From the UHGV virus genome UHGV-0139776: 64,000 bases of DNA; one strand, 5' to 3'. Below are positions 59,919 to 64,000 of the stretch, piece after piece. Each line of letters begins with the position of its first letter. Position 1 is the first letter of the stretch. The notes under the pieces were generated by a model. It saw nothing but the letters and a program-made list of their open reading frames with translations, was not told the DNA's origin and ran no database searches. The stretch comes from a virus. A program made the position numbers and the translations under genes.

Positions 59919-60045
59919 TTTTTACCTATACAACAGTAAGTTGAACAACATTTGAGAACGGTATGCACTTTGTGATTTCCACACACACTGGTTTTGTTAA
60001 TTAAAACCAGTAGCTTGCAATAAATAACGATAGTGGGCAGAAAAT

Positions 60046-60231
60046 ATGCTAATAGGCTATGTACGCATATAGACAAATGAACAAAACACAGCTATGCAGT
60101 GAAAAGCACTTGAAAGCGCAGGATGTGAGCTAATTTTTGCGAATAAGGCGAGCAGCAAAAAGGCTGGGCACCCTGGGTTAAAAAAGGTTCTGCGTATGCT
60201 TTCCAGAGGTGATACCCTAGTCTCGGACTAG
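60046..60231 (+). pseudogene. remnant of a cin/hin-family serine invertase gene
   Basis: reads MLIGYVRI*TNEQNTAMQ*KALESAGCELIF...GLKKVLRMLSRGDTLV then ends; two in-frame stops; about 60% identical to the first 61 codons of the adjacent intact invertase. Confidence 0.7.
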
Positions 60232-60353
60232 GGACAACATTTCGAGGACAGTTTTCATTAGCGGTCAGCAGGCGCTAGATACATCGAATTGATGTGCCGC
60301 GCGATAAATGTACCTATTCTATCAAGATAAATTACACCGACGCGGCATTAGAA

Positions 60354-60926
60354 TTACAGCTCAGATTGAGTTTGGCGCTTCTCTACAGGATGATAACGAT
60401 AAATCGTCGATACACCGATATCGTAAATAATTGCCAACTGTTTCCTGCTGTAGCCATTTTCGATCAACCTCGCTATTTGCTCATGTTGTTCTTTTGTCAA
60501 CTTCGGGCGACGTCCGCCAATGCGTCCCTGTTCGCGTGCAGCTGCCAGTCCGGCCAGTGTTCTCTCAACAATTAATTCACGTTCCATTTCTGCTAAAGCC
60601 CCCATGACGTGAAAAAAGAAACGCCCCATGGGTGTTGATGTGTCAATACTGTCTGTCAGACTACGGAAATTAACACCTTTTTCCCGCAACTCCTCTATAA
60701 GCGTGATAAGGTGTTTCATACTTCTGCCAAGCCTATCCAGCTTCCAGACAACCAGCGTATCTCCTTCTGATAACGTTCTGAGCAGCTTTTTCAAGCCTGG
60801 TCTGGCTGATTTTGTTCCGCTTATTTTATCTTCAAAAATCAGTTCACATCCTGCGCAGTTCAGTGCATTTCTTTGTAAATCTGTGTTTTGGTCATTTGTT
60901 GACACACGAATGTAGCCAATTTGCAT
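60354..60926 (-). CDS. cin: Cin/Min/Hin-family serine DNA invertase
   Basis: MQIGYIRVSTNDQNTDLQRNAL... with catalytic Ser in YIRVS and C-terminal HTH; ATG at 60926 (track start 60935 is TTG). Confidence 0.9.
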   Translation of the reverse strand: MQIGYIRVSTNDQNTDLQRNALNCAGCELIFEDKISGTKSARPGLKKLLRTLSEGDTLVVWKLDRLGRSMKHLITLIEELREKGVNFRSLTDSIDTSTPMGRFFFHVMGALAEMERELIVERTLAGLAAAREQGRIGGRRPKLTKEQHEQIARLIENGYSRKQLAIIYDIGVSTIYRYHPVEKRQTQSEL

Positions 60927-60980
60927 GAAAAACAACCTCTTTGTTTAGTTAAAAATACATCGTTGGTATAGGTAGGGATT

Positions 60981-61006
60981 AAGACTAAAACGTTGGTTTG
61001 GGGGAA
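60981..61006 (+). other. invertase crossover site 1 (cix/mix-like)
   Basis: AAGACTAAAACG-TT-GGTTTGGGGGAA, 12-2-12 hix/gix-like; 55 bp upstream of the invertase start. Confidence 0.75.
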
Positions 61007-61429
61007 GGCTCGGCACTGCCCGTTGGTGTGCCTGTTCCGTGGCCCTCAGCCACACCGCCAGCAGGGTGGCTGAAATGTAACGGCGCAGCATTTTCTTCTG
61101 AAATGTACCCAAATCTGGCAAGGGCTTACCCCACCAATAAATTGCCGGATTTACGCGGTGAGTTTATCCGTGGTTGGGATGATGGGCGTGGAGTGGATAG
61201 TGGGCGCGCGTTATTATCAACTCAAACAGATGAATTTAAATCACATAGTCATTATTTCGAAAGAACATGGGCACAAACTGGATTTGATACAACAGGCGGA
61301 TATTATCTTTTAGCCGCTGATGTTTCTGGCTCAGTAATTCAACAGAGATCGGATAGCACTAACTCGGTGGGGGGGAGAGAATCTCGCCCTCGTAATATTG
61401 CATTTAATTACATCGTAAGAGCGGCATAG
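60998..61429 (+). CDS. tail-fibre C-terminal cassette 1 (no own ATG)
   Basis: conserved N part LPVGVPVPWPSATPP.GWLKCNGAAF and C end RPRNIAFNYIVRAA; tail-collar-domain-like. Confidence 0.7.
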   Translation: MGEGSALPVGVPVPWPSATPPAGWLKCNGAAFSSEMYPNLARAYPTNKLPDLRGEFIRGWDDGRGVDSGRALLSTQTDEFKSHSHYFERTWAQTGFDTTGGYYLLAADVSGSVIQQRSDSTNSVGGRESRPRNIAFNYIVRAA

Positions 61430-61448
61430 AAACGTTGGTTTAGGAGAA
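61423..61448 (+). other. invertase crossover site 2
   Basis: GGCATAGAAACG-TT-GGTTTAGGAGAA; contains the stop codon of cassette 1. Confidence 0.75.
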
Positions 61449-61469
61449 GGCTCGGCGCTTCCCGTTGGT

Positions 61470-61898
61470 GTGCCTGTTCCGTGGCCCTCAGCCACACCAC
61501 CAACGGGGTGGCTGAAATGTAACGGAGCAGCATTTTCTTCTGAAAAGTACCCAAATCTGGCAAAGGTTTACCCCACCAATAAATTGCCGGATCTACGGGG
61601 CGAATTTATTCGAGGTTGGGATGATGGACGAGGTGTGGATGCGGGAAGGGGCATCTTAAGCATACAGGGGTGGTTAACAGGAAGTCATTATCATAATATT
61701 CGGTCATGGGACGCGTGGGATAACACGGTATTGGTGCCAAATGACAGAGGGGGGGATAGTCTGTTGTCGACAGATAACGCCGTCCAAGAAGGAGCGATTA
61801 ATGGTAAATTTACCAGTCAATACAGAACGGAGTTATCTGGGGGGAATGAAACCCGCCCACGTAACATTGCCTTCAATTATATTGTGAGAGCAGCATAA
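61470..61898 (+). CDS. tail-fibre C-terminal cassette 2
   Basis: same conserved ends, different middle; followed directly by tfa. Confidence 0.7.
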   Translation: MPVPWPSATPPTGWLKCNGAAFSSEKYPNLAKVYPTNKLPDLRGEFIRGWDDGRGVDAGRGILSIQGWLTGSHYHNIRSWDAWDNTVLVPNDRGGDSLLSTDNAVQEGAINGKFTSQYRTELSGGNETRPRNIAFNYIVRAA

Positions 61899-62509
61899 TG
61901 GATAATGCGATATTAAATAGCGAACTTATAGCCATACAGGCAGGAAACATTATCGTTTATAACTATGATGGTGGTAATCGGGAATATATTTCTGCATCAA
62001 CTGAATATCTTGCTGTTGGCGTTGGTATTCCAGCAAATTCTTGTTTGGATGCTCCAGGCTCACATAAAGCAGGTTATGCGATTCTCCGTTCAGAGGATTT
62101 AAGTTCATGGGAGTATGTGCCAGATCATCGTGGCGAAACTGTCTATAGCATTGACACTGGGAATCCCGAAGAAATCACGGTGTTGGGTGACTATCCGGAA
62201 AATACAACCACTATCGCCCCGCTAACACCATACGACAAATGGGATGGAGAGAAATGGGTGGTTGATACTGAGGCTCAACATAGTGCAGCTGTAGAGGCAG
62301 CAGAAACAAAACGTCAGTCATTGATTGATACTGCGATGGCTTCCATTAGTCTGATTCAGTTGAAATTACAGGCTGGACGGAAGTTGACGCAGGCAGAAAC
62401 CACACAGCTTAACTCCGTGCTAGATTATATAGACGAGCTGAACGCGATGGATTTAACCACGGCACCAGATCTCAACTGGCCTGAAAAACAACTTTCTGCA
62501 GCCAGTTGA
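61898..62509 (+). CDS. U: tail fibre assembly protein
   Basis: 203-aa Tfa-like ORF, ATG overlaps cassette 2 stop (TAATG). Confidence 0.75.
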   Translation: MDNAILNSELIAIQAGNIIVYNYDGGNREYISASTEYLAVGVGIPANSCLDAPGSHKAGYAILRSEDLSSWEYVPDHRGETVYSIDTGNPEEITVLGDYPENTTTIAPLTPYDKWDGEKWVVDTEAQHSAAVEAAETKRQSLIDTAMASISLIQLKLQAGRKLTQAETTQLNSVLDYIDELNAMDLTTAPDLNWPEKQLSAAS

Positions 62510-62514
62510 TATAA

Positions 62515-62982
62515 TTAAGCCGCCCTCACAATATAATTAAATGCAATATTACGAGGGCGGGTTTCTAAGCCAGCAGTACCTAAATTAGCTACGGACTGTT
62601 TATATGTTTTAAAAGTTCCATAATTAGGGGCTGGCAATCCTGCATCGCTTGTGTTCCCCCATCTGATAACTCCCGTATTACCACTAGTAGCCCATGCCTC
62701 GTCAAAGTAGAAATTAATTGAGCTGTCAGTTGCTACGGTTGATTTTGACGGTAATCCGTGAGCATGATCCTCCGTTGCATATCCTTGCTCGCTTAAAATA
62801 GAGCGACCAGAGTCAATCCCTCGCCCATCATCCCAACCACGGATAAACTCACCGCGTAAATCCGGTAATTTATTGATGGGATAAGCCTTTGCCAGTTTGG
62901 GATACATTTCAGAAGAAAATGCTGCACCATTGCATTTCAGCCAGCCCGTTGGTGGTGTGGCTGAGGGCCACGGAACAGGCAC
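62515..62982 (-). CDS. tail-fibre C-terminal cassette 3
   Basis: conserved ends; convergent with tfa (5 nt between stops). Confidence 0.7.
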   Translation of the reverse strand: MPVPWPSATPPTGWLKCNGAAFSSEMYPKLAKAYPINKLPDLRGEFIRGWDDGRGIDSGRSILSEQGYATEDHAHGLPSKSTVATDSSINFYFDEAWATSGNTGVIRWGNTSDAGLPAPNYGTFKTYKQSVANLGTAGLETRPRNIAFNYIVRAA

Positions 62983-63003
62983 ACCAACGGGCAGCGCCGA
63001 GCC

Positions 63004-63029
63004 TTCCCCTAAACCAACGTTTTCATGCT
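63004..63029 (-). other. invertase crossover site 3
   Basis: TTCCCCTAAACC-AA-CGTTTTCATGCT, inverted relative to sites 1-2; holds the stop of cassette 4. Confidence 0.75.
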
Positions 63030-63490
63030 GCCCTTACGATGTAATTAAACGCAATGTTGCGTGGGCGGGTTTCAGATGCTGTACGAACTGAGCGAGAGGC
63101 GTCGAATGTCCAGTTATAAGCGCCATAACCCTCAATAATTTCCGTTTCCTTTAGGCCTGTAGATAATACTTGACCATGTTGACTAAATGGCCCTGAACTA
63201 AGTACATCTCTAAAAAGCTGAGTACGCCCGAAAGAACCAACAATATTCTGAATTGCATCATTCTGTGCAGATAATAAATTACGGCCAGAGTCAATCCCCC
63301 GCCCATCATCCCAGCCGCGAATAAACTCACCGCGTAAATCCGGCAATTTATTGGTGGGGTAAACCTTTGCCAGATTTGGATACTTTTCAGAAGAAAATGC
63401 TGCACCATTGCATTTCAGCCAGCCCGTTGGTGGTGTTTCTAAGGGCCACGGAACGGGCACGCCAACGGGCAATGCTGAGCCTTCCCCCAA
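63023..63490 (-). CDS. tail-fibre C-terminal cassette 4
   Basis: conserved ends, distinct middle. Confidence 0.7.
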   Translation of the reverse strand: MGEGSALPVGVPVPWPLETPPTGWLKCNGAAFSSEKYPNLAKVYPTNKLPDLRGEFIRGWDDGRGIDSGRNLLSAQNDAIQNIVGSFGRTQLFRDVLSSGPFSQHGQVLSTGLKETEIIEGYGAYNWTFDASRSVRTASETRPRNIAFNYIVRAA

Positions 63491-63507
63491 ACCAACGTTT
63501 TTATGTG
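63482..63507 (-). other. invertase crossover site 4
   Basis: TTCCCCCAAACC-AA-CGTTTTTATGTG; holds the stop of cassette 5. Confidence 0.75.
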
Positions 63508-63974
63508 GCCCTTACAATGTAATTAAAAGCAACGTTGCGGGGGCGCATTGATATCCATGCCCCGGTAAAATTATCCTCTGCCGTCCTTTGAGTGCCTGTT
63601 ATGGAGTTATCTGATGATGCTGGAACATAATCGCTATTATTTCCTGCTTTAGGATTAGCAGGGTTTCCAACAGTTATAACAGAATCAGCAGTAGCATAAG
63701 CGATACCTACTTTGACATTAGTATTCAGATCGTAACCGTAATAATCCTGCAAAGCTGTACGAATAAATGTTGCAGTCTGACCACTTAGCAATGAACGCCC
63801 TGTATCAATCCCTCTCGAATCATCCCAACCACGGATAAATTCACCGCGTAAATCAGGTAATTTTAACGTTGGGTAAGCCTTTGCCAGCTTGGGGTACTTT
63901 TCAGAAGAAAATGCTGCCCCGTTGCATTTTAGCCACCCCGTTGGCGGTGTGGCTGAGGGCCACGGAACAGGCAC
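63501..63974 (-). CDS. tail-fibre C-terminal cassette 5 (currently joined to the constant part beyond the window)
   Basis: conserved N part continues in frame to the window edge; C end RPRNVAFNYIVRAT. Confidence 0.7.
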   Translation of the reverse strand: MPVPWPSATPPTGWLKCNGAAFSSEKYPKLAKAYPTLKLPDLRGEFIRGWDDSRGIDTGRSLLSGQTATFIRTALQDYYGYDLNTNVKVGIAYATADSVITVGNPANPKAGNNSDYVPASSDNSITGTQRTAEDNFTGAWISMRPRNVAFNYIVRAT

Positions 63975-63995
63975 ACCAACGGGCAGCGCCGAGCC

Positions 63996-64000
63996 TTCCC
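63996..64000 (-). other. invertase crossover site 5 (truncated by window end)
   Basis: begins TTCCC after the same GCCGAGCC context that precedes sites 3 and 4. Confidence 0.5.

What the first reader, a model, noticed from the sequence alone, without database searches (positions are those of the whole stretch)
60354..64000. Multi-site (Min-like) DNA inversion shufflon of tail-fibre tips instead of the two-site P1 C-segment
Seen in sequence: at least five 26-bp crossover sites of the hix/gix/cix type (TTCYCCYAAACC-AA-CGTTT...), two in one orientation (60981, 61423) and three inverted (63004, 63482, 63996 at the window edge). Each sits at the 5' boundary of a 142-157-aa tail-fibre C-terminal cassette with conserved ends and a divergent middle, and each cassette's stop codon lies inside the next site. 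There is one tfa gene and one invertase whose start is 55 bp from site 1. Established knowledge: P1 Cin and Mu Gin act on two sites to switch two tips; plasmid p15B carries a Min system with six sites. Inference: this element can generate many more than two host-range variants by nested inversions, and only some arrangements place tfa directly downstream of the expressed tip.
Basis: partly seen in the sequence, partly recalled or inferred. Interest (0 to 1): 0.75.

Follow-up and report, generated by a model that had tools for sequence, protein, structure and literature searches.

The report
Known p15B-type Min tail-fibre shufflon
The end of this window carries the multi-site DNA-inversion switch (the "Min" system first described on E. 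coli plasmid p15B) that lets a P1-like plasmid prophage swap many alternative tail-fibre tips; it is real and probably active, but it was described about 35 years ago and is common in E. coli.

Summary
Window 60354-64000 holds an intact 190-aa serine invertase, four complete 26-bp crossover sites and a fifth cut by the window end. Two sites face one way and three the other. There are five silent tail-fibre 3' cassettes and one tail-fibre assembly gene.

Two sites are identical, 26 of 26, to published p15B mix sites: mixMl''L' and mixN''O'. The gene order lydA, lydC, cin remnant, invertase, sites is the order the P1 GenBank record annotates for p15B, with spacing equal to within 1 bp.

Twenty related P1-like plasmid loci carry 6 to at least 11 cassettes from about 13 tip families. 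Each has one large segment (cassette F, tfa, cassette C) on which all other cassettes converge. Two loci hold the same eight cassette alleles in different orders, so inversion isomers occur in nature.

A simple inversion model gives 240 isomers for six sites, the number I recall for p15B. It gives at least 48 isomers and at least 5 tips for what is visible here. The constant tail-fibre gene lies beyond the window.

One point stays open: the single tfa is antisense to the fibre gene in this isomer and in about 60% of relatives.

The parts
59957..60222 (+). Remnant of the P1 cin gene (psi-cin): P1cin promoter region plus the first ~177 nt of cin, with in-frame stops, truncated
   Evidence: About 90% identical to P1 31570-31836. 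The alignment shows stop codons and truncation. The P1 record annotates the same stretch as 89% identical to p15B X62121 nt 7147-7408. The -10 hexamer TAAAAT has become TAAAAC.
60354..60926 (-). Intact serine DNA invertase (Min type), 190 aa, catalytic Ser9, transcribed away from the invertible DNA
   Evidence: PF00239 Resolvase plus PF02796 HTH_7. It is 74% identical to P1 Cin over 186 aa. It matches the Gin structures 4m6f and 3uj3 at E about 1e-92. The exact sequence is in the collection, with UniRef naming Q05517_ECOLX 'DNA-invertase', and was seen on at least 1000 contigs.
60837..60908 (-). Probable Fis-dependent recombinational enhancer inside the 5' part of the invertase gene (codons 7-30)
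   Evidence: 58 of 72 nt are identical to the enhancer annotated in P1 cin. The P1 record notes 83% identity of that enhancer to p15B nt 6463-6533. Function is inferred.
60981..61006 (-). Crossover site 1, the fixed invertase-side end (L' flank): TTCCCCCAAACC AA CGTTTTAGTCTT
   Evidence: 26 of 26 identical to p15B mixMl''L' in the table of PMC3241671. The L' half CGTTTTAGTCTT lies next to the invertase in 19 of 19 related sites.
60995..61429 (+). Silent tip cassette C1 (family B), 144 codons; stop TAG inside site 2
   Evidence: An identical peptide (T02) is present in 6 loci, at different positions.
61423..61448 (-). Crossover site 2: TTCTCCTAAACC AA CGTTTCTATGCC
   Evidence: It differs at 2 nt from p15B mixO''P'.
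61437..63015 (.). Large invertible 'M' segment: cassette F, tfa and inverted cassette C, bounded by sites 2 and 3
   Evidence: The same F>tfa><C unit is the centre of the related loci where that region is assembled cleanly. The p15B sites mixR'Ml'' and mixMr''N' both lie within X62121 2743-4447, a comparably large segment.
61437..61898 (+). Tip cassette C2 (family F), 153 codons; its stop overlaps the tfa start codon
61898..62509 (+). Single tail-fibre assembly (chaperone) gene tfa, 203 aa
   Evidence: PF02413 Caudo_TAP at E 3e-30. It is the only copy in the window. The exact protein was seen on about 1000 contigs.
62515..63015 (-). Tip cassette C3 (family C), 166 codons, convergent with tfa
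63004..63029 (+). Crossover site 3: TTCCCCTAAACC AA CGTTTTCATGCT
63023..63493 (-). Tip cassette C4 (family I), 156 codons; stop TGA inside site 3
   Evidence: The exact protein occurs in many P1-like contigs at varied positions.
63482..63507 (+). Crossover site 4: TTCCCCCAAACC AA CGTTTTTATGTG
   Evidence: 26 of 26 identical to p15B mixN''O'.
63501..64000 (-). Tip cassette C5 (family A), about 168 codons, with its first few codons cut by the window end; stop TAA inside site 4
   Evidence: The exact 157-aa called product was found in 8 loci at different positions and orientations.
63996..64000 (+). First 5 nt (TTCCC) of crossover site 5, cut by the window end. Its other half, either the constant-gene R' half GGTAATCAAGAA or another cassette's 3' end, is not visible
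   Evidence: for the flank identity. The R' half-site is seen in relatives.

Best explanation
This is a Min-type multiple DNA inversion system of a P1-like plasmid prophage, the system first described on E. coli plasmid p15B. The invertase binds as dimers to the 26-bp mix sites. With the host protein Fis bound to an enhancer in the 5' part of its own gene, it pairs two sites that lie in inverted orientation on the same supercoiled molecule. It cuts both at the central AA/TT dinucleotide, rotates the strands and religates, inverting the DNA in between. Each cassette carries the conserved half-site in its first codons (GGT TTG GGG GAA = GLGE). The variable half-site holds the stop codon of the cassette upstream. 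An inversion that involves the fixed site at the end of the constant tail-fibre gene (beyond base 64000, read on the minus strand) therefore fuses that gene in frame to a different C-terminal, receptor-binding tip, and translation ends after exactly one cassette. Only oppositely oriented sites recombine, so every cassette always points toward the central F-tfa-C segment and nothing is deleted. With n small segments there are (n+1)! x 2 arrangements and n+2 possible tips. Shown here: the sites, their orientation and identity to mix sites; the reading frames; the intact invertase; the p15B-like layout; and natural isomers among relatives. Inferred from established knowledge of the Hin/Gin/Cin/Min family: the Fis/enhancer mechanism, the restriction to inversions, the host-range consequence, and activity in this particular element.
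For: Sites: four perfect matches against 0.06 expected by chance. Site 1 and site 4 are identical to p15B mixMl''L' and mixN''O', and the other two are within 2 nt of mixO''P'. All 146 sites in 21 loci have the core AA. Invertase: intact, Resolvase plus HTH_7, Ser9, 74% identical to Cin, E about 1e-92 to Gin crystal structures. Venturini et al. (PMC6906374) report a reverse-oriented invertase 98.5% identical to p15B Min at this position in another P1-like plasmid. Layout: the order lydA, lydC, psi-cin, invertase with enhancer, sites matches the p15B X62121 coordinates in the P1 record. The enhancer-to-psi-cin distance is 615 bp here and 614 bp in p15B. Frames: in relatives the constant ORF reads through the R' site into a cassette. 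Half-sites: the variable half travels with the upstream unit (L' flank 19/19, Sc 10/10, family B 9/9, family G 7/7). The half attached to L' or Sc is joined to different cassettes in different loci, so exchange is at the core. Isomers: L005 and L009 hold the same 8 cassette peptides in different order, 7 allowed inversions apart. All 21 loci obey the convergence rule that the mechanism predicts. The model yields 240 states for six sites.
Against: No sequencing reads are available, so inversion in this very element is not shown. The constant tail-fibre gene and the last site's second half lie outside the window, so the expressed tip cannot be named. The p15B sequence itself (X62121) could not be fetched; the comparison rests on its published 26-bp sites and on coordinates quoted in the P1 record. 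No database entry carries the name 'Min' for this protein. The single tfa is antisense to the fibre gene in this isomer, and no promoter reading into the shufflon from the invertase side was found. Full function of this isomer is therefore unproven.
Confidence: 0.9

Rival explanations
1. The region is a frozen relic. The cassettes and sites are inherited from a Min-type ancestor, but the system no longer inverts in this element, for example because the invertase is not expressed or the host lacks the needed factors.
For: There is no direct evidence of inversion for this element. Some relatives are clearly damaged: pHNSHP24 has its shufflon cut by IS26, and the P1-like plasmids of PMC6906374 have impaired switches. 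No good promoter for the invertase was detected by the simple scan.
Against: The invertase ORF is intact with its catalytic serine. All visible sites are perfect and share the AA core. Identical cassette alleles sit in many positions among close relatives, including one exact isomer pair.
Confidence: 0.06
2. The different cassette orders among relatives arise from general homologous recombination between the ~200-bp conserved cassette starts, not from site-specific inversion.
For: The conserved 5' parts are 84-91% identical over 200-280 bp in both orientations. That is long enough for RecA-mediated inversion and for allele mosaicism. The conserved half-site variant does not track strictly with cassette family.
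Against: The variable half-site tracks the upstream unit almost perfectly, and the junctions always fall at a complete 26-bp site with an AA core. RecA recombination between direct repeats would also delete cassettes, yet the convergent architecture is kept in all 21 loci. The same sites were shown experimentally to be the Min crossover points in p15B (Sandmeier et al. 1990, cited in PMC3241671).
Confidence: 0.03
3. It is effectively a two-site, Cin-like switch around the tfa segment, and the outer cassettes are non-functional duplicates.
For: The central segment (cassette, tfa, inverted cassette) resembles the P1 and Mu invertible segments. Only cassette F is directly coupled to tfa.
Against: The outer cassettes have full open frames and a Collar domain, and their own sites are as well conserved as the inner ones. 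In relatives, outer-type cassettes (B, D, G, K) are the ones fused to the constant gene.
Confidence: 0.01

Closest known systems
Min multiple-inversion system of plasmid p15B (E. coli 15T-; Sandmeier, Iida, Arber and co-workers 1990-1992; GenBank X62121)
   Same: Same backbone position: constant S gene, invertible region, invertase, psi-cin, lydC, lydA. The invertase orientation is the same, and the enhancer-to-psi-cin spacing differs by 1 bp. The 26-bp sites are the same (two identical, two within 2 nt). One large two-cassette segment sits among several small one-cassette segments, and the combinatorial rule is the same.
   Different: p15B has six sites. Here five are visible and the total is unknown. 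Relatives of this element carry 6 to at least 11 sites and about 13 tip families. Which p15B cassettes are shared could not be tested because X62121 was not available.
Cin / C-segment of phage P1 and P7
   Same: Same phage family and same locus. The serine invertase is 74% identical, with an enhancer inside the gene. The 26-bp sites belong to the same Din family, and the constant 5' S gene is fused to alternative 3' ends.
   Different: P1 has two sites, two ~530-codon variable parts and two tfa genes (U and U'), and cin points toward the segment. Here there are at least 5 sites, ~150-codon cassettes and one tfa; the invertase points away and cin is reduced to a dead remnant. No cix-type site is present in the window.
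Gin/G segment of Mu, Pin/P segment of e14, Hin of Salmonella, and two-site prophage tail-fibre switches such as E. coli EC958 Phi1/2/4 (PMC4134206)
   Same: Din-family serine invertases with a 26-bp site and a 2-bp core. Collar-domain tips are fused to a constant fibre gene. The EC958 Phi2 site ...AAACGTT GGTTTGGGGGAA is nearly the same sequence.
   Different: These are two-site, two-state switches.
R64/IncI shufflon (Rci, pilV), the Rin shufflon of bifidophages (PMC6109161), and the three-tip Gin shufflon of Enterobacter phage FR-phi (PMC13418256)
   Same: One constant 5' gene is fused to several alternative 3' cassettes by multiple inversions. The consequence is a change in receptor specificity.
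   Different: Rci and Rin are tyrosine recombinases with unrelated sites. FR-phi uses a Gin-type enzyme but has only three tips.

Membership tests
Din-family serine DNA invertases (Hin/Gin/Cin/Pin/Min) | Small serine recombinase: N-terminal resolvase catalytic domain with an active-site serine near residue 9-10, and a C-terminal HTH | tested here: met
   PF00239 at E 2e-51 and PF02796 at E 3e-15. Ser9 lies in MQIGYIRVSTNDQ. It is 74% identical to Cin and matches Gin structures at E about 1e-92.
Din-family serine DNA invertases (Hin/Gin/Cin/Pin/Min) | 26-bp crossover sites of the form TTC---AAAC- -A -GTTT---GAA with an identical 2-bp core in all partner sites | tested here: met
   There are four complete sites, all with core AA, and the conserved half TTCYCCYAAACC fits the dix consensus. 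The core is AA in 146 of 146 sites across loci.
Din-family serine DNA invertases (Hin/Gin/Cin/Pin/Min) | Fis-dependent enhancer in cis, normally within the 5' part of the invertase gene | tested here: inconclusive
   The stretch is 81% (58 of 72 nt) identical to the annotated P1 cin enhancer, at the same position in the gene. Fis binding cannot be tested with these tools.
Min system of p15B | mix-site sequences | tested here: met
   Site 1 equals mixMl''L' and site 4 equals mixN''O', each 26 of 26. Sites 2 and 3 differ at 2 nt from mixO''P'.
Min system of p15B | More than two sites in both orientations, with a cluster of overlapping invertible segments: one large segment (M) plus small ones | tested here: met
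   Two sites face one way and three the other. The M segment spans 61437-63015, and small segments of about 440-515 bp flank it. The relatives show the complete systems.
Min system of p15B | Location in a P1-like backbone between the constant S gene and psi-cin-lydC-lydA, with min transcribed away from the invertible DNA | tested here: met
   The P1 record's p15B coordinates match window positions. The constant S side is seen only in relatives.
Min system of p15B | Invertase is Min itself (sequence identity to the X62121 min product) | not testable with these tools
   X62121 is not in any collection offered. The exact protein carries the UniRef name 'DNA-invertase ... Q05517_ECOLX', whose origin I could not verify. 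PMC6906374 reports 98.5% identity to Min for the invertase at this locus in another P1-like plasmid.
Min system of p15B | Demonstrated inversion producing many isomers | tested here: inconclusive
   It cannot be shown for this element without reads. Among relatives, identical cassette alleles occupy different positions, and L005 and L009 are exact isomers 7 inversions apart.
P1 Cin / C-segment | Two cix sites flanking one 4.2-kb segment with Sv-U and Sv'-U', and an intact cin reading toward cixL | tested here: not met
   cin is a truncated pseudogene. No cix-like site was found at up to 3 mismatches other than the mix sites. There is one tfa only.

The most novel reading that the evidence does not exclude
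Two things go beyond the classical p15B description and are not excluded. First, in today's P1-like plasmid prophages the Min shufflon has grown into an exchangeable pool of about 13 or more tip families, with up to at least 11 cassettes per element. That gives millions of isomers, all built around one invariant F-tfa-C core. Second, a single Tfa chaperone may serve all tips through their shared C-terminal RPRNIAFNYIVRA motif. That Tfa must then be expressed in both orientations of the core by an unrecognised promoter. Otherwise about half of all isomers, including the one in this window, would yield fibre-defective particles, which would act as a built-in cost or filter on host-range switching.
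Probability: 0.3. Interest if true: 0.4.

Novelty: already known. Interest (0 to 1): 0.2.

Why it matters
The finding adds little new biology. It identifies the element as a p15B-type member of the P1-like phage-plasmids, a group that often carries resistance genes such as mcr-1 and ESBL genes. It also shows the element is equipped to present at least five different receptor-binding tips. There are practical consequences. Gene callers annotate the silent cassettes as separate 'phage tail proteins'. Assemblies often break, or report an arbitrary isomer, in this region. Host-range predictions from a single assembled arrangement are therefore unreliable. The only open biological point is how the single tfa is expressed when it is antisense to the fibre operon.

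Tried and rejected
1. I tried to read the primary p15B papers and the P1 genome paper (PMC53420, PMC206102, PMC523184). None is held. The 240-isomer figure and the published psi-cin description therefore rest on my memory, supported and by the model.
2. The supplement of PMC3241671, which should hold p15B sequence pieces, is not held.
3. I tried to find the source record, to see past base 64000, with exact-protein look-ups of cassettes C5 and C4 and with BLAST against plasmids, phages and E. coli genomes. No locus has this exact arrangement. The best hits cover 80-89% of the region in rearranged pieces.
4. A homologue search for the invertase returned no entry named Min.
5. Scans for sigma-70-like promoters and for the P1 late-promoter motif found nothing reading from the invertase side into the cassettes. 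The retained P1cin promoter has a damaged -10 hexamer, so I dropped the idea that it drives tfa.
6. The record for phage vB_EcoM-673R5 matches, but its genes are fragmented by sequencing errors and it could not be used for cassette analysis.
7. I considered the region to be tandem-duplicated pseudo-cassettes or a two-site switch. I rejected both because the outer cassettes and their sites are intact, and outer-type cassettes are the expressed ones in relatives.

Full report
**What is in the sequence**

The last 11 kb of the window is a P1-like phage backbone. Reading on the minus strand it holds a 995-aa DdrB-like protein, DdrA, a 639-aa DarA, Hdf, LydB, the LydA holin and LydC. Several features then follow in order.

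- Window 59957-60222 is about 90% identical to the promoter region and the first ~177 nt of the P1 cin gene. It contains in-frame stops and is truncated.
- An intact 190-aa serine invertase lies at 60354-60926 on the minus strand, reading away from what follows.
- There are four complete 26-bp crossover sites and the first 5 nt of a fifth.
- There are five tail-fibre 3' cassettes and one tail-fibre assembly gene, tfa.

**Check of the observation**

About 0.06 matches are expected by chance, and the 64 kb holds no others even when 3 mismatches are allowed. Sites 60981-61006 and 61423-61448 share one orientation. Sites 63004-63029 and 63482-63507 have the other, as does the cut site at 63996.

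Each cassette begins in the conserved half-site, where GGT TTG GGG GAA encodes GLGE. Each has about 75 conserved residues with a Phage Tail Collar domain, then a divergent middle of 50-90 residues, then a conserved C-terminal RPRN(I/V)AFNYIVRA(A/T).

The stop codons of C1, C4 and C5 lie in the variable half of the next site. C2 and C3 instead converge on tfa, and the C2 stop overlaps the tfa start. The 142-157 aa lengths are artefacts of internal start codons; from the crossover core the cassettes are 144-168 codons.

**Identity with the p15B Min system**

A published table of Din-family sites (PMC3241671) lists the six p15B mix sites.

- Window site 1, TTCCCCCAAACC AA CGTTTTAGTCTT, equals mixMl''L' at 26 of 26 positions. 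This includes the 12 nt of unique flank on the invertase side.
- Site 4 equals mixN''O' at 26 of 26.
- Sites 2 and 3 each differ at two positions from mixO''P'.

The GenBank record of P1 gives p15B (X62121) coordinates for the homologous pieces: enhancer 6463-6533, cin-like stretch 7147-7408, lydC 7483-7638 and lydA 7728-8294. The order is the same in the window. The distance from the enhancer to the cin remnant is 615 bp in the window and 614 bp in p15B. The remnant also has the same boundaries relative to P1.

The same table places two p15B sites within X62121 2743-4447, so p15B also has one large segment. The other p15B sites are spaced by roughly 0.4-0.6 kb, like the window's 442- to 514-bp small segments.

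Venturini et al. (PMC6906374) found a reverse-oriented invertase 98.5% identical to p15B Min at this locus in another P1-like plasmid. I could not fetch X62121, so identity of the invertase to Min is not directly tested. The exact protein is in public data on at least 1000 contigs, with the UniRef name 'DNA-invertase, Q05517_ECOLX'.

**Evidence from relatives**

The region matches 505 plasmid records, mostly ~95-kb non-mobilizable E. coli plasmids, and 1213 of 5426 complete E. coli genomes. The matches usually come as several rearranged pieces. I analysed 20 related loci fetched by exact-protein look-up or BLAST with one script.

- Loci that extend to the invertase have a single site with the L' half CGTTTTAGTCTT next to it. 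Loci that extend to the constant fibre gene have a single site with the R' half GGTAAT(C/T)AAGAA at its end (19 L' and 10 R' sites in all). The constant ORF reads through the R' site into a cassette.
- Complete systems have 6 to 10 sites. An incomplete contig already shows 10 sites and 11 cassette genes.
- The cassettes fall into about 13 families by their middle region.
- Where the centre is assembled cleanly, it is the same unit: cassette F, tfa, inverted cassette C. All other cassettes point toward it.
- The variable half-site stays with the unit upstream of it (L' 19/19, R' 10/10, family B 9/9, family G 7/7). The partners across the core vary from locus to locus, which is the pattern expected for exchange at the central dinucleotide. 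All 146 sites have the core AA.
- L005 and L009 contain the same eight cassette peptides, allele for allele, in different orders.

A model allowing only inversions between oppositely oriented sites connects L005 and L009 in 7 steps. It yields 240 states for a six-site system, the number I recall from the 1990 p15B paper. It gives 48 states for the minimum compatible with the window.

**Mechanism**

The best-supported reading is the classical one. Invertase dimers bind the mix sites, and Fis binds the enhancer in the invertase gene. That stretch is 81% identical to the P1 enhancer. Synapsis is restricted to inverted sites on one supercoiled molecule. Both sites are cleaved at the AA core, the strands rotate and are religated.

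An inversion that uses the fixed site at the end of the constant S gene changes the C-terminal, receptor-binding part of the fibre. The stop codon in the next half-site limits the product to one cassette. The sites, frames, architecture and natural isomers are shown here. The enzymology and the host-range effect are taken from established knowledge of Hin, Gin, Cin and Min. Activity in this very element is inferred.

**What cannot be seen**

The constant gene lies beyond base 64000. Whether site 5 is the junction with it is unknown. If it is, C5 is the expressed tip and the system has 5 tips and 48 isomers. If more cassettes follow, both numbers are larger.

**An unexplained detail**

There is only one tfa, whereas P1 and Mu carry one for each orientation. 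In the window, tfa points away from the invertase. It is therefore antisense to the constant gene, which must enter from beyond 64000 on the minus strand. Among the loci, tfa is co-oriented with the constant gene in about 7 and antisense in about 12.

I found no sigma-70-like promoter and no P1 late-promoter motif reading into the cassettes from the invertase side. The -10 hexamer of the retained P1cin promoter is damaged.

Mu Tfa binds the distal part of its fibre and stays on the virion (PMC9608196). The C-terminus shared by all the tips could therefore let one Tfa serve them all. That is an inference, and it does not solve the expression problem.

**Comparison and verdict**

The system works like, and by every testable criterion is a member of, the p15B Min family. 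It is not a P1 Cin system: cin is dead, no cix sites are present, and there is one tfa. Multi-cassette tail-fibre shufflons are also known from other phages, such as Rin in bifidophages and a three-tip Gin shufflon in an Enterobacter phage.

The novelty is nil for the system and slight for the extended cassette repertoire seen in relatives. Interest is low.

Noticed in passing
window 59957-60222: This is a dead remnant of the P1 cin gene: the promoter region plus the first ~177 nt, with stop codons, and the -10 hexamer changed from TAAAAT to TAAAAC. It sits next to the functional Min-type invertase. Its boundaries match those the P1 record annotates for p15B, which suggests a single ancestral replacement event.
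   Followed up: yes
window 61898-62509, and loci L003-L022: The single tfa is antisense to the constant fibre gene in this isomer and in about 12 of 19 informative relatives. No promoter was found that would transcribe it from the invertase side. How it is expressed in those isomers is unexplained.
   Followed up: partly
loci L004-L022 (for example L011 7119-12513, L015 5487-11424): Relatives carry up to 10 sites, and at least 11 cassettes in one incomplete contig, compared with six in p15B. The cassettes are drawn from about 13 tip families. The 5' conserved parts are mosaic (PSATPP or PLETPP, KYPNLAKV or MYPKLAKA) independently of the variable middle, which suggests gene conversion between cassettes.
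   Followed up: partly
L008-L011, L015-L022 and L023 (NZ_JBQJRM010000005.1, 2595 bp): Many draft contigs of ~95-kb P1-like plasmids begin or end inside the shufflon. One 'complete' assembly has the shufflon as a separate 2.6-kb unlocalized contig. This is probably an assembly effect of the inverted repeats and of mixed isomers in the culture.
   Followed up: no
L002 (pHNSHP24, NZ_CP065023.1) 6455-9642: This is an mcr-1-carrying 175-kb cointegrate. Its P1-like part is 98% identical to the window over 20 kb, but its shufflon is cut by IS26 right after the F-tfa-C segment. The constant fibre gene is lost there, so that switch is dead.
   Followed up: no
window 60334-60348 (minus strand): A terminator-like hairpin followed by a T-run lies a few bases after the invertase stop codon. 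It is probably the invertase terminator.
   Followed up: no
window 60354-60935: The mechanical ORF list starts the invertase at TTG 60935, giving 193 aa. Alignment to Cin and the database proteins (190 aa) support ATG 60926, which is preceded by AAAGAGG.
   Followed up: yes
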